Positions 4,973-36,762 of a stretch of 64,000 nucleotides of DNA are shown one piece after another (position 1 is the stretch's first letter; each line of letters opens with the position of its first letter). Origin of the DNA: a virus (taxonomy: Duplodnaviria; Heunggongvirae; Uroviricota; Caudoviricetes). Below the pieces are notes generated by a model. That model had not been told where the DNA came from. It searched no databases and was given only the letters and a program-made list of their open reading frames with translations. The translations under genes were made by a program, and so were the position numbers. The stretch lies in IMG/VR virus record IMGVR_UViG_3300021255_002129; one strand, 5' to 3'.

Positions 4973-6928
4973 ATGGATCCAGATAAGATACATGAATATA
5001 AAATTCAAGAATTAGTTGATAAATTAAATTATTATACTAAACTATATGATGAAGGTCATCCCGCAATTAGTGATAAAGAATGGGATGATATGTATTTTGG
5101 ATTACAACAGTTAGAAAATTATTATGGTATTTATCTCCCAGACAGTCCAACTCAAAAAGTTAATTATCAAGTTGTAAATAAATTAAATAAAGTAAAGCAT
5201 AATCATCCTATGTTATCGCTTGATAAAACTAAATCAATAGATGCAATTAAATCTTTTTTAGGAAATAAAGATTTTATTTGTATGGCAAAAATGGACGGTC
5301 TGACTTGTTCTTTAAGATATTTAGATGGAAAATTAGTATCTGCGGAAACCCGCGGAAATGGTATTGAAGGAGAAGATATTTTTCATAATGCTTTACAAGT
5401 AAAAAATATTCCTAATAAAATTAACTATAAAGAAGAATTAATTATAGATGGAGAAATAATTTGTACTTATAATGATTTTAAAAATTTTGAAAAAGAATAT
5501 AAAAACCCTAGAAATTTTGCAAGTGGTAGTATAAGATTATTAGACAGTAAAGAAAGTTCTATGAGAAATCTTACTTTTATAACATGGGATATTATAAAAG
5601 GTCTAGATGAAGATAGATTAAGTAGCAAATTATTAAAGGCAGATGAATTAGGTTTTACTATTGTTCCTTTTGAAATTAATTTACCTGAATATGAAACAAT
5701 AGAGCAAATTATGGAGATAGTAAAAAAATCTAGCTCTATATATCCAATTGATGGACTTGTTTTTAAGTATGATAATTGTGATGAATATATTGCCGCAGGT
5801 AAAACCGACCATCATTTTAAGGGTGGATTGGCATATAAGTTTTATGATGAAGAATATGAAACTACTTTACAAAATATAGAATGGACTATGGGAAGAACTG
5901 GAGTACTAACTCCCGTAGCTATATTTGAACCTATTGATATAGATGGAACTGAAGTATCAAGAGCTAATTTATTTAATTTAAGTGTGGCTAGAGAGACTCT
6001 TCATGGTACTCAATACAGACTTGGTTGGAAAGGACAAAAAATAAATGTTTTTAAAGCTAATCAAATTATCCCTCAATTAAGTTGGTCAGAAGAAGATGAT
6101 GAGAAAACTAAAGAATATTTTTCTTATCCTGCAAGTTGCCCTATTTGCGGCTATTCAACAAAAATAAAAAAAGAAAATGATGTTGAAGTATTATTTTGCG
6201 ATAATGAACAATGTGAAGGTAAATTATTAAATAGAGTAGAACATTTCTTTAGTAAAAAAGGTTTAAATGCAAAGGGTTTATCAAAAGCAACAATAGAAAA
6301 ATTAATAGATTGGGGATGGATTAATGGAATCAAAGATGTATTCATACTTGATGCGTATGCAGAGGATTGGAAGAAAAAGGCAGGTTTTGGAGAAAAGTCT
6401 GTTAACAATATTATCACATCCATCAGAGAAAATAGTAATACTGACCTCGAATCCGTTATTAGTGCAGCAGGAATTCCACTTATTGGTAGAACAGTGGCTA
6501 GACAAATCGCAAGCATCTTCAATACATACGAGGATTTTAGAAAAGCAATCGGGAATTTTGATTTTTCAGAAATAGATGGCTTTGGATATGAAATGAATAA
6601 ATCATTAAAAAATTATAATTATGATGAATTAGATTATATTGTAGAAAATTTCTTAACTATAAATAATAAAATAGAAGAAAGGAAAGAACAAAAATTAGAA
6701 GGTTTAACTTTTTGTGTAACCGGAAAAATCAAACAATGGAAGAACAGAGATGAACTATCTAGTTTTATTACTTCACTAGGCGGAAAGGTAGTGGGTTCAG
6801 TTTCCGCAAATATGGATTATTTAATAAATAACGACATTAATTCAACATCAAGTAAAAATTTAAGAGCTAAAGAATTGGGCAAACAGATTATTGATGAGCA
6901 AACTTTCATGGATATGTTTGATTTATAA
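4973..6928 (+). CDS. ligA: NAD-dependent DNA ligase
   Basis: Adenylation motif 'MAKMDGL', OB/Zn-finger 'CPICG...C..C' and C-terminal BRCT ('LTFCVTGKI...') are all present. No TGA. Confidence 0.9.
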   Translation: MDPDKIHEYKIQELVDKLNYYTKLYDEGHPAISDKEWDDMYFGLQQLENYYGIYLPDSPTQKVNYQVVNKLNKVKHNHPMLSLDKTKSIDAIKSFLGNKDFICMAKMDGLTCSLRYLDGKLVSAETRGNGIEGEDIFHNALQVKNIPNKINYKEELIIDGEIICTYNDFKNFEKEYKNPRNFASGSIRLLDSKESSMRNLTFITWDIIKGLDEDRLSSKLLKADELGFTIVPFEINLPEYETIEQIMEIVKKSSSIYPIDGLVFKYDNCDEYIAAGKTDHHFKGGLAYKFYDEEYETTLQNIEWTMGRTGVLTPVAIFEPIDIDGTEVSRANLFNLSVARETLHGTQYRLGWKGQKINVFKANQIIPQLSWSEEDDEKTKEYFSYPASCPICGYSTKIKKENDVEVLFCDNEQCEGKLLNRVEHFFSKKGLNAKGLSKATIEKLIDWGWINGIKDVFILDAYAEDWKKKAGFGEKSVNNIITSIRENSNTDLESVISAAGIPLIGRTVARQIASIFNTYEDFRKAIGNFDFSEIDGFGYEMNKSLKNYNYDELDYIVENFLTINNKIEERKEQKLEGLTFCVTGKIKQWKNRDELSSFITSLGGKVVGSVSANMDYLINNDINSTSSKNLRAKELGKQIIDEQTFMDMFDL

Positions 6929-6946
6929 AAAATTTTTTGTTATAAT
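6918..6946 (+). promoter_or_regulatory. early promoter TTGATT-N17-TATAAT (extended TG)
   Basis: TTGATT at 6918-6923 and TGTTATAAT ending at 6946. It overlaps the ligA stop codon. Confidence 0.5.
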
Positions 6947-6952
6947 ATATTT

Positions 6953-7138
6953 ATGAAAGATGAGAAAAAACTAAAAGAGTTGACGGAACAAATAATTAAA
7001 TATGAAAAAGAATGCCAACTCGGAAATAACGTTCAAGAAAATATGAGTAAGATAGAGCAACTTATTCAATCTCTTTCAGTAGAAGAAATGCTCGCTATAG
7101 ATGCATATATAACTAATGAAAATTTTTTGACAAAGTAA
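6953..7138 (+). CDS. hypothetical protein (61 aa)
   Basis: Short ORF downstream of a promoter. Confidence 0.35.
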   Translation: MKDEKKLKELTEQIIKYEKECQLGNNVQENMSKIEQLIQSLSVEEMLAIDAYITNENFLTK

Positions 7139-7155
7139 AATTTTTATGATATAAT
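7127..7155 (+). promoter_or_regulatory. early promoter TTGACA-N17-TATAAT (consensus)
   Basis: TTGACA at 7127-7132 and TGATATAAT ending at 7155. Confidence 0.6.
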
Positions 7156-7218: not shown

Positions 7219-7491
7219 ATGTTAAAACCAAATAGTAGAACAGTTTATGAATTTGTAAAAGCTAATGACGGTAAGAATATTACTGCAGCTGATATCGCAG
7301 AAAGAACAGGATTAGATACTAAACAAGTAAATGGTATCGTTACATCTGCATTCCAAAGAAAAGGATTAATGGAAAGAATTCCTGCTGAAATCGAATTAGA
7401 AGATGGAAGTCATAAATCAGTTAAATTCATCAGATTAACTGACGAAGGAAAAGCTTTTAATCCAGATGCTGAAGAAACAAAAGCTGAATAA
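7219..7491 (+). CDS. hypothetical protein (90 aa), possible HTH DNA-binding protein
   Basis: RBS AAAGGAGAG. It is followed by a terminator. Confidence 0.4.
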   Translation: MLKPNSRTVYEFVKANDGKNITAADIAERTGLDTKQVNGIVTSAFQRKGLMERIPAEIELEDGSHKSVKFIRLTDEGKAFNPDAEETKAE

Positions 7492-7513
7492 TTTTTAATA
7501 AAAATCTAACATA

Positions 7514-7552
7514 GGAAAGCGGAGGAGGTAATCCTCTGCTTTCCTTTATTTT
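7514..7552 (+). terminator. rho-independent terminator
   Basis: GGAAAGCGGAGG...CCTCTGCTTTCC hairpin followed by TTTATTTT. Confidence 0.6.
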
Positions 7553-7567
7553 AAAAAGGTGATGTAA

Positions 7568-8500
7568 ATGTATTTTATAATATTTCTATTATTATGTATT
7601 TCTTGTTTACTATTTTATTTATATTACAAAGAAAAAAACAAAACAAGAGAAATAGATGAAATAAATGAAAATATTAAAAAAGAAAATGAAAAAATAGAAG
7701 ATGAAAATAAATACTTAAATGAGAAAAAAGATTTTATACAAAAAGAAATTGAAAATAAACAAAATATTTTAAATAAAGTTCAACAATCAATAGAAAGTTC
7801 GGAACAAGTATCCAGAAATGCGTTTGAAAATTATATGGATACTTTAGATAAAGAATACGAGTTAAAAGAAAAAGAATATTATGCGGCAATAGATTTATTA
7901 AACAAAAGTTATGGAGATATACAAAATAAAGTTAATGCGGAAATCGATCAAATCCGTATAGACCTAGATAAAATTTCTGCAACCCGCACCGCCGCAATTC
8001 AAGCACAATTAGAAGAAGAAAAAATACAACAACAAGCAGAATATTATTCTTTATCTATTGATGATGTAGATAAACGAGAAACAAAAATATTGCAATCTAT
8101 TGAAAATGAACTCCGTGATCCTAGGCCTATCCGCATGATTATATGACAAACATATTATTCTAAAAAAGCAAATGAACTTGCTGCAAGAGTATTAGGAACA
8201 GAGGAAAAATGCGGAATATATAAAATTACAAATAAAACAAATAAACTATGTTATATAGGACAAGCTAAAAAAATTAGAGAAAGATGGCGTGAACATATGA
8301 AATGCGGTCTTGGAATAGACACTCCCGCAAATAATAAATTATATCAAGCTATGTATAAAGAAGGAATTGATAACTTTACTTTTGAAATGCTTGAGGAGTG
8401 CGCTACCGCAGATTTAAATGAAAAAGAAGCCTTTTATATTAATTTATATAATTCATATGATTATGGATATAATTCTAATAAGGGAATTAGAAATTCCTAA
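7568..8500 (+). CDS. membrane-anchored coiled-coil protein with a C-terminal GIY-YIG / T5orf172-like nuclease domain (DUF4041-like architecture); contains one in-frame TGA (Trp) at 8144-8146
   Basis: N-terminal TM 'MYFIIFLLLCISCLLFYLYY' is followed by a long coiled coil. The in-frame TGA is followed by 'GIYKITNKTNKLCYIGQAKKIRERWREH', a GIY-YIG/T5orf172 motif. Track ORFs 7568..8146 and 8297..8500 are in the same frame. Confidence 0.55.
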
Positions 8501-8501
8501 T

Positions 8502-8530
8502 TTGATTTATTAAATAAAAAATGATATAAT
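8502..8530 (+). promoter_or_regulatory. early promoter TTGATT-N17-TATAAT
   Basis: TTGATT at 8502-8507 and TGATATAAT ending at 8530. Confidence 0.55.
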
Positions 8531-8560
8531 ATAATTAGAAAATGAAAGGAGAAAAATAAT

Positions 8561-9199
8561 ATGTGGTTATCTTTTCTAAAAAGAATGAACAAAAATAAAC
8601 AATATATTACTTCTCTTGAAGATATTCCAAAATATATGAAAATTAGCAATAGAGAATTACAATTAGATACTTTGACACCTCAAATAGCTGAGTCTATTGA
8701 TGCTTATATTAGATTTTGGAATTTAGCAGATGACGAAATGGGAATTTTATTATCTGAAAGAGAACCTATTAAACTTTATATAAACTCAATTGGTGGAAGT
8801 TTAGATGCAGCAATTACAATTGCTAATTCAATTCAAATATCTAAAACACCTGTTTATACTTTTAATATTGGCTCTGTGCATAAAGAGAGTTTTTTGGTGT
8901 ACTTAGCTGGGCATAAAAGATTTACTTATGTTGATTCAACATTTATGTTTACAGACAGTATTTTTCAAAAGCCAGTTGAAGAAGAAAATGAGTCTACTTT
9001 TTATAGTAAAAATATGTTATTAACTGCTATTCAAGCAAATATAAAAACTTCTTTAATTGAAAAAACAGGAATTACAGAAGCTCAATATGATAAGCATTGC
9101 AAAAATGAATGGTGGTTTAATACTGATGATGCATTTAAATTACATATATGCAACGAAATATCAAGAAGTCATTATCATTATATAAAGAAAGATAGATAG
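8561..9199 (+). CDS. ClpP/S49-like serine peptidase family protein
   Basis: 'YINSIGGSLDAAITIANSIQ' resembles the ClpP 'INSPGGSV' region. The catalytic residues are not confidently assigned. Confidence 0.5.
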   Translation: MWLSFLKRMNKNKQYITSLEDIPKYMKISNRELQLDTLTPQIAESIDAYIRFWNLADDEMGILLSEREPIKLYINSIGGSLDAAITIANSIQISKTPVYTFNIGSVHKESFLVYLAGHKRFTYVDSTFMFTDSIFQKPVEEENESTFYSKNMLLTAIQANIKTSLIEKTGITEAQYDKHCKNEWWFNTDDAFKLHICNEISRSHYHYIKKDR

Positions 9200-9212
9200 G
9201 GAGGGAAATAAT

Positions 9213-9542
9213 ATGACAATGAATGAATTTTTAAAAGAATTAGAAATATATACAAAATATTTTAGTCCTGCGGCAATGGATTTTTATACCGAATTAAAAG
9301 AAAAAACTCAAAATACTTTTACTGAAAATGGTAGAAAAATACTTATTTGTATGCAACAAAATCAAGCAACATATAAAACTTTTAGTTCAAAACAATTAGG
9401 AGAATTATTATTTATACCTCCACGCTCAGTATCTGGAGCTATGAAAAAGTTACTTAATGAGGGGTATTGCCGCAAACAAGCTACAAACCCTGTGACATAT
9501 GAGTTGACAACTTTAGGCAGTGAAACTCAGCTTGACGATTAA
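9213..9542 (+). CDS. hypothetical protein (109 aa)
   Basis: RBS GGGAGGGA. Confidence 0.4.
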   Translation: MTMNEFLKELEIYTKYFSPAAMDFYTELKEKTQNTFTENGRKILICMQQNQATYKTFSSKQLGELLFIPPRSVSGAMKKLLNEGYCRKQATNPVTYELTTLGSETQLDD

Positions 9543-9560
9543 AAAAATTTTTGATATAAT
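9532..9560 (+). promoter_or_regulatory. early promoter TTGACG-N17-TATAAT
   Basis: TTGACG at 9532-9537 and TGATATAAT ending at 9560. Confidence 0.55.
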
Positions 9561-9615
9561 ATTAATATAGAAAAATGAAAATTAAAAGAATAATTAGAAA
9601 AGGAGAAGAAAGTAA

Positions 9616-10578
9616 ATGAAAAAAATGATTAATACTGAAAGAGTAGAAGGTAGAATTTATCAACATAATTTAGTAAAGAAAACTGTACAAAATCAAGCAT
9701 CTCAAAACTTTGGTAAAGAATTTATATCAGGCAATATTGAAGTTGCTGTTGATGAAGAAGGATTAGTAGTAATTCCAGTACACTTTACATATGTTGTAGA
9801 AACAACTAACTCAGGAAATAAAAATGCAACTTATACAAATTTAGATAGAATTATCAATGGTGGCAAAACTTGGGTTACAGATGGAAAAGACGAAGCATTA
9901 AAAGTAAGAATTGATACTGCATTAGCATTAAATGATTTTTATACACAAGATGATAGATTAGTATCAACTAAAGTAAATGAAGGTGGATTTGTTACAATCA
10001 TATCTGACTTAGGTCCAGAAAATGAAAGAAATACATTTACAACCGATATGTTAATCACAAATGTAACAAGAGTTGAAGCTGACCCTGAAAAAAATATAGA
10101 TAAAGATTATGTAGTAGTAAAAGGTGCTATATTTAATTTTAGAAATGCATTATTACCTGTTGATTTTATCGTTAGAAATGATGAAGGTATGGAATATTTT
10201 GAAGATTTAAACGCATCTCAAAATGAACCAGTATTCACAAAAGTATGGGGTAGAATTAATTGTGGTTCAATCGCAAATGAAGTAAAAGAAGAAACTGCAT
10301 TTGGTGAAGAAGCTGTTAGAACTTTTGAAAGAAAAATAAGAGAATGGATTATCACAGGGACATCAAAAGTACCATATGATTTTGGAGATGAAACTGTATT
10401 AACTGTTGCTGAAGTTCAAAAGGCTATGCAAGATAGAGAATTAATGTTAGCAGACACAAAGAAACGTAGTGAAGAATATAGAGCTCAAAAAGACAGAGGA
10501 TCTACTTCAGCTCCAGCAGCTACACCATCAACTACAACTACTACTGTAACTGCAGCTAAAGGAACATTTAATTTTTAA
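9616..10578 (+). CDS. hypothetical protein (320 aa); possibly a single-strand DNA-binding/annealing partner of the downstream ATPase
   Basis: Large ORF with RBS AAAGGAGAAG and a Ser/Thr/Pro/Ala-rich tail ('STSAPAATPSTTTTTVTAAK'). The function is inferred only from its position next to the Sak4-like gene. Confidence 0.4.
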   Translation: MKKMINTERVEGRIYQHNLVKKTVQNQASQNFGKEFISGNIEVAVDEEGLVVIPVHFTYVVETTNSGNKNATYTNLDRIINGGKTWVTDGKDEALKVRIDTALALNDFYTQDDRLVSTKVNEGGFVTIISDLGPENERNTFTTDMLITNVTRVEADPEKNIDKDYVVVKGAIFNFRNALLPVDFIVRNDEGMEYFEDLNASQNEPVFTKVWGRINCGSIANEVKEETAFGEEAVRTFERKIREWIITGTSKVPYDFGDETVLTVAEVQKAMQDRELMLADTKKRSEEYRAQKDRGSTSAPAATPSTTTTTVTAAKGTFNF

Positions 10579-15430: not shown

Positions 15431-17150
15431 TCCAAAATATTCTACAATAGAAACAATATTAACAAATAGACATATTCCACTTGCGGAAGTAGCTCATTAT
15501 TTAAATACCACTGATGAAGATATTAATAAACCAGAAGCATTTGGTCAAAATTGTTTGACACAAGCCGCTCAATGTTTAATACAACACATTGCTGCAGGAA
15601 GTCGTGCTTTAGTCATTGTAGACTGCGATTGTGATGGTTTTACCTCTGCCGCATTACTTATTAATTATCTTCATGACCTAGTCCCAAGTTGGGTAGAGTC
15701 AAATCTTAAATGATGGGTTCATGAAGGAAAGCAACATGGATTAAATGATTGTATGGATTATATTAATTCACATACTTTTGATTTGGTATTAATCCCTGAT
15801 GCTGGGTCAAATGATTATGAAGCCCATGCCGCACTTAAAAAGAAAAATATTGATACAATAATATTAGACCACCACTTAGCTGATAAATTAAGTGATGATG
15901 CTATTGTAATTAATAATCAATTATCAAACTATCCAAACAAAGAATTATCAGGTGTTGGTGTTGTCTATCAATTTTGTAGATATATAGATGAAAAAATGAA
16001 AACTCATTTTGCAGATTATTATTTAGATTTAGTAGCATTAGGTCTTACTGGAGATATGATGTCATTAACATCAATAGAAACAAAGCATTTGATTATGAAA
16101 GGCTTTGAACCTGAAAATATACACAATCCATATATCTATGAAATGTGGCAAAAGAATAAATTTAAACTAGGTGAGCATATTACTTCAATAGATGCAGCGT
16201 TTTATATAGTCCCTATGATTAATGCAGTTCAACGTAGTGGAGAAATTGAAGAAAAAGAATTATTATTCAAATCAATGTTAAAACATGAAGCTTTTGAAAT
16301 GATACCATCTAATAAACGCGGACATGCTTCAGGTGAAATGGAAAGATTAGTAGACCAAGCAGTTCGTATGTCTACAAACGTTAAAAATAGACAAACAAGA
16401 GAACAAGATAAAACAATGGAAGAACTAGAGCTTTTGATAGAAGATTCAGGTTTGTTAGACCATAAAGTTATATTATTTACTCTTGATGATAAAGAATTAA
16501 ATAGAAATATTGCAGGATTAATTGCAAATAAAATTGCTAATAAATATCAAAGACCTTGTTGTATATTAAGTAAAACCTTAGAAATCGATCCTGGACATAC
16601 AACTATGTTGCAAGATGGAACTGAAGTTTTTGTAACTAGTGCTAGTAGAGTATTATATCAAGGTAGCGCAAGAGGGTATGAAGCAACAGGCGTAACTAAT
16701 TTTAAAACTATATGTGAGGCGGCTGGGGCTGAATGGTGCCAAGGTCATGAGAATGCATTTGGTATGTGTCTTGCGGAAGATCAGATTGAAAGATTTTTAA
16801 CTGAGACTGATGCTGCATTAGCAGATATTTCCGCAGAGCCTATATATTATGTAGATTATATTTACAATGGAGCAGATGTTCAAGCAAGTGACATTTTAAC
16901 TATTGCTAATTTAGGTAATTTATGGGGAAAAGACTTTGATGAAGCTCTTGTGGCTGTTGAAAATTTAAAAATAAGTAAAGATATGATAACTGTATATAGA
17001 AAAACAGGAAATACATTAAAAATATCTTTACCAAATAAAATAAGTTTAATGAAATTTAATGCAACTGATGAAGAATGCTTCAAACTAGAAAACTTTGAAG
17101 GTGCATATTTGTCATTAAACATTGTAGGAAAATGTAATCAAAATGAATGA
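15402..17150 (+). CDS. RecJ-like DHH-family single-strand exonuclease; one in-frame TGA (Trp) at 15711
   Basis: DHH motifs 'LVIVDCDCDGFTSAAL' and 'TIILDHH' are present. Track ORFs 15402..15713 and 15753..17150 share a frame and are joined as '...SNLKWVHEGKQHGLN...'. Confidence 0.8.
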
Positions 17151-17222
17151 ATGGGTAATATATCTCCACAAATATTTATAGAAGATTATGAAATTACCGG
17201 TTCAGGAAAATATCTCTTTTAA

Positions 17223-17251
17223 TTGATTTTATTAAATAAAAATGATATAAT
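17223..17251 (+). promoter_or_regulatory. early promoter TTGATT-N17-TATAAT
   Basis: TTGATT at 17223-17228 and TGATATAAT ending at 17251. Confidence 0.55.
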
Positions 17252-17269
17252 ATAAATATATGAAAAGAG

Positions 17270-17545
17270 ATGATAATATTGAATAATAATAATATAAACA
17301 GGAATTTTGATATATTAGATTTTTTATCTTTAATTAGTTTTTTTGCTCAAATGAAAAATATGAATGATGATGATATTGCCGCTTTAAAAAATAATAAAGT
17401 AATTCAAGCAGTTGCAAATGAAGTAGATAAATTACATAAAGAAAATGATGATATTATTAACTATTTAAAAAGAGTAGATGATGATGAGCAAAAAATTATA
17501 AGGAGATTAGATAGTCTAATTACTATATTAGAAAGGAGACTATAA
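17270..17545 (+). CDS. hypothetical protein (91 aa)
   Basis: ORF downstream of a promoter, with a coiled-coil-like C-terminus. Confidence 0.35.
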   Translation: MIILNNNNINRNFDILDFLSLISFFAQMKNMNDDDIAALKNNKVIQAVANEVDKLHKENDDIINYLKRVDDDEQKIIRRLDSLITILERRL

Positions 17546-18739
17546 ATGGAGCTTAATGACAAACAAAAGCAGGGTTTAGATATAGCAGTAGATAGATATA
17601 AACGAAAAGAACGTTACACAGTTATATCTGGATATGCGGGAACAGGTAAGTCGACACTAGTTAAATTTATAGTCGCCGCTTTACCTAATATCAATCCAGA
17701 TGAAGATGTTATATATACATCTTTCACAGGTAAAGCAACACAAGTTTTACAAAAAAAAGGTAATAAAAATGTAAGCACATTACATAAATTATTATTTGAA
17801 AGTATCCCTAAGCCAGATGGAACTTTCTTTCGTAAACCTGTAGAGTTTATACCATATAAAATAGTTATAGTAGATGAATGTAGCATGGTACCAAAAGAGC
17901 TTTTACAACGATTAATTAAATATAATGTTCATATTATATGCTTAGGAGATCCAGGTCAATTGCCACCAATAAATAAAAATGAAGATAATCATTTACTAGA
18001 CCATCCACATATATTCCTAGATGAAATTATGCGTCAAGAGGCAGAAAGTGAAATTATTAATTTAACCATGGATATAAGGGCGGGAAAACCTTTAACTCGT
18101 TATCAAGGAAAAGAAGTTCAAGTTTTAAATAAAGATGAATTAACAACAGGTATGCTATTATGGGCAGACCAGATAATTTGTGCAAAAAATGAAACTAGAA
18201 TAGCTTTAAATAATCAAATGAGAGATTTGCTTGGTAGAAGCGGAGGTCCGCAAAATGGGGATAAAGTTATTTGTTTAAAAAATAATTGGGATATATATTC
18301 AGTTAATGATAACCCTCTTGTTAATGGAACTATTGGATATTTAAAAGATAGTTTTAGTACATATATTAATTTACCTAGACAAATAACTAGTGATGGACAG
18401 CCAAAAAAATTAGATATATTAACTGCTAATTTTATATCGGATACAGAAGAAGATTATGGTATATTAAATATGGATAAACAATTAATCACTACTGGAGTTC
18501 CAGGTTTAGATTGGAAAACAAGTTATAAGATGGGTAGAAATTGGAGATTTCAAGATAAAATTCCAGACCAGTTTACTTATGGTTATGCTATTACCTGTCA
18601 TAAATCACAAGGTTCAGAATGGGATAATGTACTTGTTATAGAAGAAGGTTTCCCTTTTGAAAAAGAAGAACATAAACAATGGTTATATACAGCTGCGACT
18701 AGGGCTGCTAAAAAACTAGTTATTATAAAGAAAGATTAG
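17546..18739 (+). CDS. Dda/RecD-like superfamily 1 DNA helicase
   Basis: Walker A 'GYAGTGKST', Walker B 'IVIVDECSMV', and 'ITCHKSQGSEWDNVLVI' (RecD/Dda motif VI-like). Confidence 0.8.
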   Translation: MELNDKQKQGLDIAVDRYKRKERYTVISGYAGTGKSTLVKFIVAALPNINPDEDVIYTSFTGKATQVLQKKGNKNVSTLHKLLFESIPKPDGTFFRKPVEFIPYKIVIVDECSMVPKELLQRLIKYNVHIICLGDPGQLPPINKNEDNHLLDHPHIFLDEIMRQEAESEIINLTMDIRAGKPLTRYQGKEVQVLNKDELTTGMLLWADQIICAKNETRIALNNQMRDLLGRSGGPQNGDKVICLKNNWDIYSVNDNPLVNGTIGYLKDSFSTYINLPRQITSDGQPKKLDILTANFISDTEEDYGILNMDKQLITTGVPGLDWKTSYKMGRNWRFQDKIPDQFTYGYAITCHKSQGSEWDNVLVIEEGFPFEKEEHKQWLYTAATRAAKKLVIIKKD

Positions 18740-32823: not shown

Positions 32824-33768
32824 ATGAATGATAAAATAGATATAGTAGTTACATACTTAAATGATCAAGACCAGCAGTGACAAGAAGAATTTAATAAATA
32901 TAAACAATATGAAGTTTCTAAAGGATGAATAAATCCCAATAGTATTCAAGCCTTCGGAGAAGAAAGAATAAGAAATTGAGATTTTACTCAGTATTGGTTT
33001 AGAGGAGTAGAAAAATGCTGCCCATGAGTTAATAAAATATTTTTTATAATTCAAAATGAACATCATATTCCAGAATGATTAAATACTACTAATCCAAAAA
33101 TTCGTATAGTATATCATAATGAGTTTATACCAAAAGAATTATTACCTACATTTAATCCTATGACTATTGGATTATATATTAATCAAATTAAAGATTTAAG
33201 CGATAATTATATTATGTGTGACGATGATTATTTCTTTTTAAATCCGATAGATGAAACTAAGTTTTTTATAAATAATAAACCTCAGCATGAAGATAACCAA
33301 GCTCCATATGGATACTTTTACGATGGTGATGAATTTTTACATATAATGAATAATTGCTTTGATTTTGAAAAAAAATATGACGATGGTAAAACAAAATATC
33401 ATTTTTATCATTTACCGACAGCAAGAAATAAAACATTAGAACAAAAAATTTTAAAAGATAATTATAATGATATATTAAATTCTCAAAGAGTTAGTAGATT
33501 TAGATACCCAACTAATTTAGATGCAAATATTTATTCTAATATTTTAAAATTAACTCACAATGCAGATATCCTACCAAAAGGTACTATCTATGGAAATAGT
33601 GCTTATGTTGCATTACAACCAAATATTGATTTTTATCAATATAAAGATAAAGAAATGGTTTGTTTCAATGACGTAGATTTAGTAACAGGGCATTTTGAAG
33701 AAATACAAAAATCTCTTATTGAATTTTTAAAATATAAATTCCCAAATAAGAGTTCGTTTGAGGTGTAA
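32824..33768 (+). CDS. Stealth-family (CR1-CR4) sugar-phosphate transferase; at least six in-frame TGA
   Basis: 'IDIVVTYLNDQDQQW' (CR1-like) and '[37 protein letters not shown]' (CR2-like). In frame with track ORF 33160..33768. Confidence 0.6.
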
Positions 33769-33770
33769 AA

Positions 33771-34565
33771 ATGAAAGAAAAATTTTTTAGTGTTATAATT
33801 CCTAATTACAATAATTCAACATATTTAGAAAAATGTTTAAAATCAGTATTAAATCAAACTTTTACTAATTATGAATTAATTGTAATAGATGATGTTTCAA
33901 CAGATAATAGTGTTGAAATAATTAAAAATATTTTTAATGAATACAAAGATAAAGATACAAAATTAATTGAATTAAAAGAAAAAGCTTGAAATGGCGGTAG
34001 CCGCAATATTGGTATTAAACAAGCTACCGGAAAATATTTTCTATTTTTAGATAGCGACGATTGATTTATGAATAATACTATATTCCAACAAGTCTATGAT
34101 TTTATCATAAGTAAAAATAACCCAGAATTAATTAGACTTTCTTTTGATATATTAACAAAAGATAATTGGCAATTTACAGTATGACTAGATGAAAAAGATT
34201 TAGATGAATTAGCAAATACTTGTTATGTAGCTTCTTGAATAAAATGCATTAGAGCAGATAAAATGATACCCTTTGAAGAAGATACATTAATGGAAGATGC
34301 AATTCAACATATTAAACAAATTGATGTCTTAACTAATTTTGAAGTTTTAAAAATATCCGCCGTATGTCATAATACTCAAAATCCAAATCAATGTAGCTCA
34401 CAAGAAAATAAAAAATTACAAGATGCTAAATGAGAAAAATCAATGCATAAATTTTATCAAAGTTTATTAGATTTAAAATGTAATCACGACTATTGTGAAA
34501 AAAGAAGATTATGAAAAATAGAAGAAGCAAAAGGCCATATTGAAAGAGGAGAGGCTTGACAATAA
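33771..34565 (+). CDS. family 2 glycosyltransferase (GT-A); about seven in-frame TGA
   Basis: 'FSVIIPNYNNSTYLEKCLKSVLNQT...IVIDDVSTD' followed by 'FLDSDD'. Confidence 0.7.
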
Positions 34566-35140
34566 TGAAATTATCAATAATAACACCATATTATAATTGT
34601 CTAAACTATCTTCAAAACTTAGTAAAGGTTTTAGAACCACAATTAACCAATGAAGTCGAATGAATTATTATTGATGATGGCTGCCATGAACAAGAACTTG
34701 ATAAAATTAAAGCAACTATAATACATTTATTAAATAATAGCGGATGTGCAGGAGTCCCTCGCAATTATGGATTAGATATTGCAAAAGGAGATTATATAAC
34801 TTTCGTTGATGCAGATGATTTAGTTTCTAAAGATTTTGTATCTAAAATAATAAATAAAATAAATTTAACAACATTTGATTATTGTTTAATGAGTTGAGAA
34901 AAAATAGATAAATCATTTTATGTAGACGTAACAACTGGAAGACCAGATTGAAACTGTAGTGTGTGAGGTATTATATATAACAAAAATAATTTAAAAAATG
35001 TGCGTTTTAATAATAAAAAATTTGCAGAAGATTATGATTTTAATCAAATAGCATTAAAAGGAAAAGAAGAGAGAATACTTGATTACTTATATTTTTATAA
35101 TAGCAATGAAAATGGACTATCTGCAAATTGGGAAGGATAG
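34565..35140 (+). CDS. family 2 glycosyltransferase (GT-A); four in-frame TGA
   Basis: 'LSIITPYYNC...IIIDDGC...FVDADD'. The ATG overlaps the preceding TAA. Confidence 0.7.
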
Positions 35141-35143
35141 AGT

Positions 35144-36256
35144 ATGGAAAATCAAGAACAATTTTATACAAATATATTCTATTTTGATAGAATAAATAAA
35201 ATAGGCGGAGTTGAGACTTTCTTTTACGAAATAGCAAAAAAATATTGTAATAATGATATTACTGTATTTTATTCTTTTGGAGATTTAAAACAAATCCAAA
35301 GATTAAAAAAGCTTATAAGAGTAGTTAAATACACAGGACAAAAAATAAAATGTAAAAAAGCATTTTTCAATTACAGTTTAAAGCCTATCGACAATATACA
35401 GGCGGAAAAATATTATGAAATTATCCATGCTAATTATAAAGATTTAGGTATTTATCCTAATGTTAGTCCAAAAATAGATGAATATATTGGAGTTAGTCAA
35501 TCTGTATGCAATGCATTTACAGAATTAACTGGTTTACCTTGCACGCTATGTTATAACCCAATTACAATAGATAAGCCTAAAAGAGTATTATATCTTATTT
35601 CTGCAACTAGATTAACAAGAGAAAAAGGAAAAGATAGAATATTAAAACTTGCAAAAGCATTAGATGATGCGAAAATCCCCTATGTTTGAACTATATTTAC
35701 AAATGATACTAAAGAGATAAAACATCCCAGAATAATCTTTATGGAGCCACAATTAAATATTAGAGATTATATCGCTAAATCAGATTATACTGTTCAATTA
35801 AGTGATACAGAAGCTTATTGTTACACGATGATTGAAAGTTTATTATTAAACGTCCCTATTATTGTAACTCCATGAAAATGTTTAAAAGAGTTAAATATAA
35901 CAGAAGAATATGGATTTATATTACCTTTTGATATGGAAGATATTCCTGTAAAAGATATTTATAATAAAGAATTTAATTTTAAATATAAATTAATTCCAGA
36001 TACTTGAAATAAAATAATTGAACCAAGCAAATCTACTTATCAAGAAGAATTAAATGCCAAATATATTGTAGAAGCATTAAAAACATATCAAGATAGAAAT
36101 TTCAAAGATGTTCAATTAGGAATTATTCCTAGTCCTGGTTCTAGATGGACGGTTACAAAAGATAGATTGGATTTATTGTTAGGAGAAAATGAAAATCAAG
36201 AGGCTTATGTAAAATTAATTGACATAGTTAAAGATGATAAAGGAGATGATATATAA
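35144..36256 (+). CDS. GT-B fold (GT1/GT4-like) glycosyltransferase; three in-frame TGA
   Basis: 'GGVETFFYEIAKK', 'ISATRLTREKGKDRIL' and an E-X7-E-like 'ESLLLNVPIIVTP' motif. Confidence 0.65.
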
Positions 36257-36762
36257 TGAATATCTTATCATTAGACCTTTCAACCAAATCAAGCGGCTGA
36301 GCTTATTTTGAAGATGGAGAACTTAAAGATCATGGATGCATTACATCTGCATCTACTGATTTAATTAAAAGAATATATATTATGAGAGATGGGATTGCGG
36401 AAATCCTTGATAAATATGCTGTAACCAAGATTGTTGTAGAAGAAGTTAGACCTGAAGGTGGTTACGGAGTAGGCAATACAAAAACTCATCGAGCTTTAAT
36501 GTGACTTCAGGCAGCAACCGCATTTTTAATTCATGATAATTACCCTTCTATTGAAATAGAATATATATATCCAAGTTCATGACGTGCAGCTTTAGGTATT
36601 AAAAATGGTCGCGGAATAAAGAGGACATCATTAAAAGAGCAAGATATACAATATGTTCAAGATAAATATAATATAAATGTAAATGATGATGAAGCAGATG
36701 CAATATGCATAGGTTTATCACAATATAAAGAAAAAGATGATAATGAAATAAATTGAGCATAA
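36256..36762 (+). CDS. RuvC-like Holliday-junction resolvase; three in-frame TGA
   Basis: 'LSLDLSTKSSGWAYF' (RuvC motif I-like) and 'DDEADAICIG' (catalytic Asp pair). It is the last gene before the convergent terminator. Confidence 0.7.

What the first reader, a model, noticed from the sequence alone, without database searches (positions are those of the whole stretch)
7568..8500. Membrane-anchored coiled-coil protein fused, through an in-frame TGA, to a GIY-YIG/T5orf172 nuclease domain
An N-terminal TM helix and ~170 aa of coiled coil are followed, after a TGA at 8144, by 'GIYKITNKTNKLCYIGQAKKIRERWREH...'. This is the DUF4041 + T5orf172 architecture. It sits in the early region between small unknown genes. 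Such membrane-tethered nuclease-domain proteins are candidates for superinfection exclusion, abortive infection or DNA-processing roles. Under the standard code the nuclease domain would be cut off and only the coiled-coil part made, so TGA suppression could act as a switch.
Basis: partly seen in the sequence, partly recalled or inferred. Interest (0 to 1): 0.6.

Follow-up and report, generated by a model that had tools for sequence, protein, structure and literature searches.

The report
Membrane-anchored phage nuclease with recoded TGA
The "stop" inside this gene is an ordinary tryptophan codon of a gut phage that reads TGA as Trp, so 7568-8500 is one gene for a membrane-anchored DNA-cutting enzyme. 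That gene is unusually tightly locked, by a terminator in front of it and by recoded stop codons, across a large family of uncultured phages.

Summary
ORF 7568-8146 ends at TGA 8144-8146, and the same frame runs on to TAA 8498-8500 and encodes a GIY-YIG nuclease domain.

The window comes from a phage that reads TGA as Trp: about 70 in-frame TGAs, many inside conserved domains. A relative with 95% nucleotide identity carries a tRNA(UCA) next to tRNA-Trp. Codon 193 is an invariant Trp (118 of 118 homologues; TGG in standard-code relatives). This is therefore one 310-aa gene, not a fusion or a two-product switch.

New findings:
- The gene is a syntenic core gene of a large clade of uncultured, about 100-200 kb phages.
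- An intrinsic terminator lies just upstream in 56 of 75 members, against 48 of 875 other genes.
- The gene is preferentially recoded in TGA lineages (76% against 21% of Trp codons) and in TAG lineages (36% against 11% of Gln codons).

The most likely reading is a tethered nuclease whose synthesis is held back until the code switch. Its target is unknown; injected foreign DNA is my inference.

The parts
7127..7155 (+). Consensus sigma-70-type promoter (TTGACA-17-TATAAT with TG) driving the small upstream gene. Context for the cassette.
   Evidence: 12 of 12 match with an extended -10.
7219..7491 (+). Small 90-aa gene (g008), weakly winged-helix-like. It is the conserved upstream partner of the nuclease gene.
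   Evidence: Sub-threshold matches to MarR_2, HTH_11 and DUF7646. A homologue ends about 50-140 nt before the nuclease gene in 75 of 77 loci.
7513..7552 (+). Intrinsic terminator: a 14-bp stem (7513-7545) followed by TTATTTT. It lies between g008 and the nuclease gene.
   Evidence: dG about -24 kcal/mol. An equivalent hairpin plus T-run lies within 80 nt upstream in 56 of 75 family members, against 48 of 875 other genes. The sequences differ while the structure is kept.
7556..7562 (+). Ribosome-binding site AAGGTGA, 5 nt before the ATG.
   Evidence: Read directly from the sequence.
7568..8500 (+). A single gene of 310 codons, with TGA193 read as Trp. It encodes a membrane-anchored coiled-coil GIY-YIG nuclease.
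7571..7627 (+). N-terminal transmembrane anchor (residues 2-20). The following basic stretch KEKNKTRE suggests the C-terminus lies in the cytoplasm; this topology is inferred from the positive-inside rule.
   Evidence: Hydropathy. The hydrophobic N-terminus is conserved in 43 homologues.
7628..8032 (+). Long helix, presumed coiled coil (residues 21-155). Its sequence is variable except for the Ala-rich segment at about residues 133-150.
   Evidence: AF2 helix 2-155. Conservation pattern.
8033..8194 (+). Conserved about 54-aa linker unit (residues 156-209: a strand plus two helices). It is the best-conserved part outside the nuclease and contains motif RDPRPIRMIIWQTYYSKKANELAARVLG.
   Evidence: It has no Pfam match, DUF4041 included.
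8144..8146 (+). In-frame TGA, codon 193, decoded as the invariant Trp.
   Evidence: W in 118 of 118 homologues. TGG in standard-code relatives such as L003.
8213..8464 (+). I-TevI-type GIY-YIG catalytic domain (residues 216-299). Catalytic positions Y218, Y229, R239, H243, E287 and N302 are invariant; N302 lies just beyond the modelled domain.
8502..8530 (+). Sigma-70-type promoter (TTGATT-17-TATAAT with TG) for the next gene, a ClpP-like gene at 8561-9199. It starts 2 nt after the nuclease stop codon.
   Evidence: The same arrangement is found in close relatives.

Best explanation
**Shown**
- 7568-8500 is one gene of a phage that decodes TGA as tryptophan.
- Codon 193 (TGA) is the invariant Trp of the most conserved motif of the protein.
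- The product has an N-terminal membrane anchor, an about 150-residue helix, a conserved about 54-residue linker unit, and an I-TevI-type GIY-YIG catalytic domain with all catalytic residues. It has no DNA-recognition domain.
- It is a vertically inherited core gene of the replication module (gyrA, ligase, small wHTH-like gene, this gene, (ClpP), YorF, AAA_24, YorH, DnaB) in a large clade of uncultured phages of about 100-200 kb. Members of that clade use the standard code, TGA=Trp, or TAG=Gln.

**Inferred**
- TGA is read by a phage opal-suppressor tRNA(UCA) derived from tRNA-Trp. It was found in a relative with 95% nucleotide identity, outside this window.
- Synthesis of the nuclease is doubly restrained. 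A strong intrinsic terminator sits directly in front of the gene, and the gene has no promoter of its own, although its neighbours do. Recoded stop codons also accumulate in it far more than in its neighbours. The full enzyme should therefore appear only after the suppressor tRNA is active and the terminator is read through.
- The anchor and coiled coil hold a non-specific nuclease at the inner face of the membrane, probably as a dimer.

**Most speculative step**
- By analogy with the bacterial defence protein SNIPE, its target is DNA arriving at the membrane, that is, exclusion of superinfecting phages. Delayed synthesis would protect the phage's own entering genome and the cell's DNA.
For: **TGA is a sense codon in this phage**
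- Pfam domains span in-frame TGAs in RecJ, NrdG-like, Stealth, GT2 and GT1 genes. A tail-protein PHROG match also spans TGAs.
- The greedy ORF calls show about 70 in-frame TGAs in the window, unevenly distributed: 0 in gyrB, gyrA, ligase, ClpP and DnaB, but 24 of 28 Trp codons in the glycosyltransferase block.
- TGA positions align with W or Y in standard-code relatives.

**Single gene**
- W193 is invariant, and the relative L003 has TGG there.
- No start codon lies in frame before codon 244.

**Suppressor tRNA**
- tRNA(UCA) lies at L110:17176-17271, 5 nt from tRNA-Trp(CCA), with the same AGGGG...CCCCUGCCA ends. The contig is about 95% identical to the window.

**Nuclease identity**
-; invariant catalytic residues.

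**Core-gene synteny**
-.

**Terminator and promoters**
- Terminator: (56 of 75 against 48 of 875; Fisher p 8e-45).
- The flanking genes have consensus promoters but this gene has none.

**Preferential recoding**
- TGA lineages: 25 of 33 Trp codons against 139 of 659 in the flanks.
- TAG lineages: 305 of 840 Gln codons against 431 of 3935.
- The gene exceeds its flanks in 10 of 11 TGA clusters and 18 of 19 TAG clusters at 70% identity.
- In L064, L068, L073 and L088 it is almost the only recoded gene in 20 kb.

**Published context**
- Borges et al. report that recoding in 'Agate' phages of about 127 kb is concentrated in late genes and in an intron endonuclease (bioRxiv 10.1101/2021.08.26.457843).
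- SNIPE is a TM-anchored GIY-YIG nuclease that cuts injected DNA and is toxic without its anchor (bioRxiv 10.1101/2025.11.03.685801).
Against: - There are no expression data. The timing is inferred only from codon usage and sequence signals.
- Some replication genes (RecJ, NrdG-like, YorH) also contain TGA, so the code change may come fairly early and the lock may be weak.
- The enrichment could be neutral drift in a gene that is simply not needed early.
- The suppressor tRNA was found in a relative, not in the window.
- Exclusion genes are usually early and variable, whereas this gene is a conserved core gene in a replication module. That fits a housekeeping role in phage DNA metabolism at least as well.
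- No DUF4041 or PD-lambda-1 similarity was found.
- Dimerisation and membrane topology were not tested.
- Phass-1 has a promoter-like site directly upstream and lacks the g008/terminator arrangement.
Confidence: 0.6

Rival explanations
1. Two-product switch. Under the host code a 192-aa membrane coiled-coil protein is made. After suppression the 310-aa nuclease is made. The ratio between the two has a function, for example the short form acting as a dominant-negative partner.
For: - The TGA sits at the boundary between the helix and the conserved C-terminal half.
- Suppression is never complete, so in this phage both products are probably made. This is inference.
Against: - The position is simply that of the only invariant Trp.
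- Relatives with TGA at codon 2 or 3 (L002, L025, L026, L028, L057) or codon 6 (L077), and TAG-recoded relatives with a first TAG at codons 2-55, cannot make that short form.
- Standard-code relatives make only the full protein.
Confidence: 0.1
2. The recoding enrichment is neutral. The gene is needed only late or is weakly constrained, so AT-biased mutation lets TGG drift to TGA and CAG to TAG without any selection for a lock.
For: - Homing endonuclease genes, which the phage does not need, are also TGA-rich (13 of 17 Trp codons in L001).
- Borges et al. see recoding mainly in late genes.
Against: - W193 is under strong purifying selection, and the gene is a conserved core gene.
- The enrichment recurs in two different recodings and in 28 of 30 clusters.
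- It is accompanied by a second, independent restraint: the conserved terminator.
Confidence: 0.3
3. The enzyme degrades host DNA, or processes phage DNA, at the membrane. It would be like T4 EndoII or a debranching nuclease, and would not exclude other phages.
For: - It is a core gene inside the replication and nucleotide-metabolism module, next to ligase, gyrase, RecJ and RNR genes.
- The family is seen only in phage contexts.
Against: - A membrane tether restricts access to the nucleoid. For SNIPE the tether is what prevents host-DNA cleavage.
- Host-DNA degradation is normally an early function, whereas this gene appears delayed.
- No DNA modification that would protect the phage's own DNA was identified here.
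Confidence: 0.25
4. The host itself uses code 4 (a Mycoplasma-like bacterium). TGA would then be an ordinary Trp codon at all times and nothing would be gated.
For: - GC content is 28.6%.
- Related contigs were binned into MAGs labelled Bacilli, Mollicutes or Anaeroplasmatales.
Against: - TGA use ranges from 0% to 86% between gene blocks.
- The phage lineage carries its own tRNA(UCA) beside tRNA-Trp(CCA).
- The same clade includes standard-code and TAG-recoded members.
- Borges et al. predict standard-code hosts for such phages.
Confidence: 0.08
5. It is a free-standing homing endonuclease (a mobile selfish gene), or two separate genes, or a pseudogene or assembly error.
For: - The best family hits are named homing or group I intron endonuclease.
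- True homing endonuclease genes occur nearby in relatives.
Against: - Only the catalytic domain matches (TIGR01453 positions 1-88 of 215). There is no DNA-binding domain.
- The position is fixed and syntenic in 75 of 77 loci, down to about 30% identity.
- There is no start codon for a second gene.
- The TGA is conserved across independent assemblies, and homologues are full length.
Confidence: 0.03

Closest known systems
SNIPE / PD-lambda-1 of E. coli ECOR26 (RCP76574.1): a membrane-bound nuclease that cleaves phage DNA during injection (bioRxiv 10.1101/2025.11.03.685801; PMC9519451)
   Same: [quoted passage not shown]
- An elongated helical middle part.
- A C-terminal GIY-YIG-superfamily nuclease with a catalytic Glu.
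- The same conservation gradient: variable N-terminus, conserved nuclease.
   Different: - SNIPE is 500 aa, with DUF4041 (PF13250, residues 197-252) and a T5orf172/MUG113-type nuclease (residues 357-448). This protein is 310 aa, with an I-TevI-type PF01541 domain and a different about 54-aa linker unit.
- No DUF4041, T5orf172 or PD-lambda-1 match was found.
- SNIPE is a bacterial defence gene. This is a core gene of lytic-type phage genomes.
I-TevI catalytic domain (PDB 1ln0/1mk0) and group I intron GIY-YIG endonucleases (TIGR01453)
   Same: - HMM E 1e-20.
   Different: - It has no linker, zinc finger or helix-turn-helix DNA-binding domain.
- The extra sequence is N-terminal (anchor plus coiled coil).
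- It is not mobile: its position is fixed and syntenic.
Stop-codon-recoded gut phages: the 'Agate' clade (TGA=Trp, about 127 kb; Borges et al.) and Phassvirus/phAss-1 (TAG=Gln, 135,976 bp; PMC10607447)
   Same: - The genome size of relatives (133-136 kb), the TGA recoding concentrated outside the core replication genes, and the suppressor tRNA all match.
- phAss-1 carries an orthologue of this gene.
   Different: - Neither paper, in the passages read, describes this gene family. In phAss-1 it is annotated as two hypothetical fragments.
- Borges et al. flag an intron endonuclease inserted in an early gene. That most likely refers to the homing endonuclease genes in gyrB/dnaB, not to this gene.
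- Assignment of the window to 'Agate' is by resemblance only.
T4 endonuclease II (DenA), a GIY-YIG nuclease that starts host-DNA breakdown
   Different: EndoII is soluble, is expressed early and has no membrane anchor or coiled coil. Sequence identity is only 18%.

Membership tests
GIY-YIG superfamily, I-TevI-type catalytic domain (PF01541 / TIGR01453 N-terminal part) | GIY and YIG motifs plus the catalytic Arg, His, Glu and Asn | tested here: met
   Y218, Y229, R239, H243, E287 and N302 are invariant in 43 homologues. They align with I-TevI Y6, Y17, R27, H31, E75 and N90 (residue numbering of I-TevI is from my own knowledge).
GIY-YIG superfamily, I-TevI-type catalytic domain (PF01541 / TIGR01453 N-terminal part) | HMM score above the curated cut-off, and the fold | tested here: met
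   [not shown]
Homing endonuclease (mobile GIY-YIG HEG) | A C-terminal sequence-specific DNA-binding module | tested here: not met
   Only model positions 1-88 of 215 of TIGR01453 match. The protein ends about 8 residues after the catalytic Asn.
Homing endonuclease (mobile GIY-YIG HEG) | Sporadic, insertion-like distribution (in an intron, an intein or between genes) | tested here: not met
   The same neighbours are found in 75 of 77 loci, down to about 30% identity.
SNIPE / PD-lambda-1 | An N-terminal membrane anchor | tested here: met
   Hydropathy is 2.47 over residues 1-19. The hydrophobic N-terminus is conserved. Localisation itself was not tested.
SNIPE / PD-lambda-1 | A central DUF4041 (PF13250) domain | tested here: not met
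   PF13250 is not among the listed matches at E<=1 for the window protein or 6 divergent members, nor among the 25 most-matched families across 43 homologues. A fold comparison with DUF4041 was not possible, because no DUF4041 sequence or structure was at hand and the AFDB library was unavailable.
SNIPE / PD-lambda-1 | A T5orf172/MUG113-type nuclease domain (PF10544 / PF13455), or a PADLOC PD-lambda-1 model hit | tested here: not met
   The best nuclease family is PF01541; T5orf172 is not listed. PADLOC returns only the HEase and UzuA nuclease parts.
SNIPE / PD-lambda-1 | Cleaves injected phage DNA; toxic when the anchor is removed | not testable with these tools
   This needs experiments.
TGA=Trp (code 4) recoded phage | In-frame TGAs inside conserved domains of many genes, aligned with Trp in relatives | tested here: met
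   For this gene specifically.
TGA=Trp (code 4) recoded phage | A phage-encoded opal suppressor tRNA | tested here: inconclusive
   None was found in the window. One is present in a contig with about 95% nucleotide identity (L110:17176-17271, anticodon UCA, Trp-like acceptor stem).
TGA=Trp (code 4) recoded phage | Recoding is uneven, sparing the core early and replication genes | tested here: met
   There are 0 TGAs in gyrB, gyrA, ligase, ClpP and DnaB. This compares with 86% of Trp codons in the glycosyltransferase block and 37% in the tail block.

The most novel reading that the evidence does not exclude
A previously undescribed, phage-specific family of membrane-tethered GIY-YIG nucleases is a core component of a large clade of gut phages. 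It is kept under a conserved double lock: an intrinsic terminator directly upstream, plus preferential stop-codon recoding that arose convergently in both TGA and TAG lineages. On this reading, phages use the genetic-code switch as a gene-specific safety catch for a dangerous enzyme. That enzyme acts at the membrane, for example as a phage-borne counterpart of SNIPE that destroys the DNA of superinfecting competitors.
Probability: 0.3. Interest if true: 0.7.

Novelty: new variant of a known kind. Interest (0 to 1): 0.5.

Why it matters
- **Annotation.** Standard gene callers cut this family at 192 aa, or into fragments as in GenBank phAss-1, and so hide a conserved nuclease.
- **Biology of recoding.** The gene is a clean test case for the idea that recoded stop codons time or restrain the synthesis of particular proteins. 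Two different recodings converge on the same gene, and a conserved terminator points the same way.
- **Membrane nucleases.** If the enzyme works at the membrane as SNIPE does, spatially restricted DNA cleavage is used by phages as well as by bacteria.

Tried and rejected
- **DUF4041 / T5orf172 membership.** I searched Pfam with the joined protein, with 43 homologues and with 6 divergent members, and PADLOC with 5 members. No hit.
- **AFDB fold search.** The library was unavailable.
- **Nucleotide search of phage GenBank records.** No match for the region.
- **Protein searches of phage GenBank records.** Only phAss-1 carries a family member. All other hits are homing-endonuclease catalytic domains.
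- **tRNAs near the gene.** I looked in the window and in about 75 related loci. None is adjacent except in phAss-1. The suppressor was reached only by walking about 28 kb upstream in a relative.
- **Literature on Uzume/UzuA.** Nothing usable. The PADLOC UzuA hit covers only the nuclease domain.
- **Rfam on the insertion that splits the suppressor tRNA in L106.** No intron family at E<=0.01.
- **Rejected readings.** Independent downstream ORF, pseudogene or assembly error, selenocysteine, mobile homing endonuclease. Reasons are given under the rival explanations.

Full report
**1. The observation**

The window has an ATG at 7568, preceded by AAGGTGA. The frame reaches TGA at 8144-8146 and then stays open for 117 more codons to TAA at 8498-8500.

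- The first 19 residues are strongly hydrophobic (mean hydropathy 2.47) and are followed by a basic stretch.
- AlphaFold2, run with 43 homologues, gives a confident model (pLDDT 88.5). It has one helix over residues 2-155, a small unit at 156-209, and an alpha/beta domain at 216-299.
- The part after the TGA matches Pfam GIY-YIG.
- No ATG, GTG or TTG lies in frame between the TGA and codon 244. An independent downstream ORF would therefore lack the GIY, YIG, Arg and His positions.

**2. What the TGA is**

The window has 28.6% GC. With TGA read as sense, many ORFs lengthen or merge, and the greedy ORF calls carry about 70 in-frame TGAs.

Several results show these are sense codons:
- Pfam domains run straight across them in the RecJ-like, NrdG-like, Stealth, GT2 and GT1 genes.
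- A tail-protein PHROG match does the same.
- In standard-code relatives, the TGA positions of YorH and RecJ align with W or Y. The position in this gene aligns with W in 14 of 14.

Use of TGA is very uneven:
- none in gyrB, gyrA, ligase, ClpP-like or DnaB;
- 24 of 28 Trp codons in the glycosyltransferase block at 32824-36762;
- about 37% in the tail block.

This is the pattern Borges et al. describe for TGA-recoded 'Agate' phages of about 127 kb. Contigs carrying close homologues are 133-136 kb.

The window has no tRNA. I walked upstream in an IMG/VR contig that is about 95% identical to the window. About 28 kb upstream of the gene there is a tRNA array containing a tRNA with anticodon UCA. 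It lies 5 nt from tRNA-Trp(CCA) and has the same acceptor ends.

The in-frame TGA of the finding is therefore an ordinary Trp codon of this phage.

**3. One gene, and a large family**

- A search of 5.8 billion proteins gave 1716 hits, most of them 298-313 aa and full length.
- The residue at the TGA position is W in all 118 that cover it. It sits in the best-conserved motif, RDPRPIRMIIWQTYYSKKANELAARVLG.
- A 51%-identical relative from a standard-code phage has TGG there. Closer relatives have TGA, and one also has TGA at codon 3.
- An exhaustive HMMER search found 463 cluster representatives at E<1e-30, with the same length and layout.
- More than 500 IMG/VR contigs carry a member.
- In GTDB genomes the gene occurs only on phage-like contigs binned into Bacilli, Clostridia, Mollicutes or Anaeroplasmatales MAGs. 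The one divergent, non-syntenic case, L022, also has a phage-like context, with RNase H and ligase.
- Among GenBank phages only the metagenomic phAss-1 has it. There it is 327 codons with nine in-frame TAGs and is annotated as two fragments.

**4. What the protein is**

The C-terminal domain is the I-TevI type of GIY-YIG catalytic domain:
- TIGR01453 positions 1-88 of 215, E 1.2e-20;
- PDB 1mk0/1ln0 by sequence, E 9e-9;

Y218, Y229, R239, H243, E287 and N302 are invariant, so the enzyme is very probably active. It has no DNA-recognition domain; the protein ends a few residues after the catalytic Asn.

Neither PF13250 nor PF10544 is among the listed matches at E<=1 for the window protein or six divergent members, nor among the 25 most-matched families across 43 homologues. 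PADLOC returns only homing-endonuclease and UzuA nuclease parts.

The protein that does have that architecture is SNIPE (PD-lambda-1): 500 aa, DUF4041 at 197-252 and T5orf172 at 357-448. [quoted passage not shown] The present family has the same design, a membrane anchor, an elongated helix and a GIY-YIG-superfamily nuclease. It is built from different parts, so I treat SNIPE as an analogue and not as the family.

**5. Context and regulation (new here)**

The gene order gyrA, ligase, small wHTH-like gene (g008), this gene, (ClpP-like), g011, YorF-like, AAA_24, YorH-like, DnaB is kept in nearly all 77 loci examined. A g008 homologue ends 50-140 nt upstream in 75 of them. This is a vertically inherited core gene, not a mobile endonuclease.

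In the window, the genes starting at 6953, 7219, 8561 and 9616 each have a near-consensus extended -10 sigma-70 promoter. This gene has none. Instead a 14-bp-stem intrinsic terminator (7513-7545 plus a T-run) lies between g008 and its ribosome-binding site.

The same kind of hairpin plus T-run lies within 80 nt upstream in 56 of 75 distinct family members, against 48 of 875 other genes of the same loci (Fisher p about 8e-45). The hairpin sequences differ while the structure is kept. The window's own terminator was missed by my stricter script, so that count is conservative.

**6. Preferential recoding (new here)**

The phage clade contains members using the standard code, TGA=Trp and TAG=Gln.

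| Lineage | Recoded codons in this gene | Recoded codons in flanking genes |
|---|---|---|
| TGA=Trp | 25 of 33 Trp codons (76%) | 139 of 659 (21%) |
| TAG=Gln | 305 of 840 Gln codons (36%) | 431 of 3935 (11%) |

- In L057 the gene has 3 of 3 Trp codons as TGA, against 2 of 53 in its flanks.
- In several TAG loci it is almost the only recoded gene in 20 kb (L064: 9 of 30 against 3 of 175; L068: 11 of 26 against 1 of 86; L073: 9 of 31 against 0 of 62; L088: 11 of 35 against 1 of 85).
- Grouping the proteins at 70% identity, the gene exceeds its flanks in 10 of 11 TGA clusters and 18 of 19 TAG clusters (sign tests p 0.006 and 4e-5). These clusters are still related, so the p-values are indicative only.
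- In L001 the homing endonuclease genes that split gyrB and dnaB are also TGA-rich (13 of 17), while the interrupted genes have none. These are probably the 'group I intron endonuclease inserted in an early gene' that Borges et al. found preferentially recoded.

Nuclease genes embedded in the standard-code early region are thus the recoded ones.

**7. How it most likely works**

Shown:
- a single gene;
- TGA193 is Trp;
- an I-TevI-type catalytic domain with intact catalytic residues;
- a hydrophobic N-terminus and a long helix;
- core-gene synteny;
- the conserved upstream terminator;
- enrichment of recoded codons.

Inferred:
- The TGA is read by a phage tRNA(UCA).
- Early transcription from the g008 promoter mostly stops at the terminator.
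- Any message that gets through cannot yield the nuclease until suppression is active.
- The enzyme therefore appears late or at a low level.
- The anchor and the coiled coil, probably dimeric, hold a non-specific nuclease at the inner face of the membrane.

The target is the weakest step. By analogy with SNIPE, I favour DNA that arrives at the membrane, that is, superinfecting phage genomes. Delay would then protect the phage's own entering genome. The gene's core status inside a replication module fits host-DNA breakdown or phage-DNA processing nearly as well.

Many relatives have recoded stops at codons 2-55, and standard-code relatives have none.

**8. Verdict**

- The TGA is explained by a known phenomenon.
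- The DUF4041/T5orf172 assignment is wrong in detail but right in spirit.
- The gene belongs to an uncharacterised, widespread, phage-specific family of membrane-anchored GIY-YIG nucleases with an unusually conserved restraint on expression.

I rate it a new variant of a known kind, of moderate interest.

Noticed in passing
L110:17176-17271 (IMG/VR contig IMGVR_UViG_3300037400_002591, about 95% identical to the window; outside the window): An opal-suppressor tRNA (anticodon UCA) with a Trp-like acceptor stem. It is 96 nt long because of an extra arm that looks like a second, CCA-type anticodon stem-loop. It lies 5 nt upstream of tRNA-Trp(CCA).
   Followed up: partly
L106 and L107, minus strand, about 835-1137: The homologous suppressor tRNA is split within the anticodon loop (GGTCTT | about 207 nt | CAAAACC) by an intron-like insertion. 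ARAGORN misses it, and Rfam gives no intron family at E<=0.01.
   Followed up: partly
L110:12587-13009: A tmRNA gene (Rfam RF00023, 76.6 bits; tag peptide predicted by ARAGORN) lies inside the phage tRNA array.
   Followed up: no
L001:2337-4283 and 16102-18011: GIY-YIG and LAGLIDADG homing endonuclease genes split gyrB and dnaB in a 94%-identical relative; the window has intact genes. In these endonuclease genes 13 of 17 Trp codons are TGA, against none in the interrupted genes.
   Followed up: partly
window 32824-36762 (+): A block of Stealth, GT2 and GT1 glycosyltransferase genes with 24 TGA against 4 TGG. It is the most heavily recoded part of the window, and its function (cell-surface or DNA modification?) is unknown.
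   Followed up: partly
window 6918-6946, 7127-7155, 8502-8530, 9532-9560 (+): Near-consensus sigma-70 promoters with an extended -10 precede individual small genes of the replication module. This suggests many separate early transcription units read by host RNA polymerase.
   Followed up: partly
L104 (phAss-1, OQ749652.1) 8467-10010: The phAss-1 orthologue (327 codons, nine in-frame TAGs) is annotated as two hypothetical fragments. It has a promoter-like site directly upstream, and is followed about 300 nt later by tRNA-Leu and two TAG-suppressor tRNAs.
   Followed up: partly
L083:10001-10639: In this TGA-recoded relative the orthologue's reading frame breaks right after the YIGQTVN motif. This may be an insertion or intron inside the nuclease domain, or a decayed copy.
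   Followed up: no
window 7219-7491 and 9213-9542 (+): Two small, weakly winged-helix-like genes (g008 and g011) flank the nuclease/ClpP pair. g008 is almost always directly upstream of the nuclease gene and might regulate it.
   Followed up: partly
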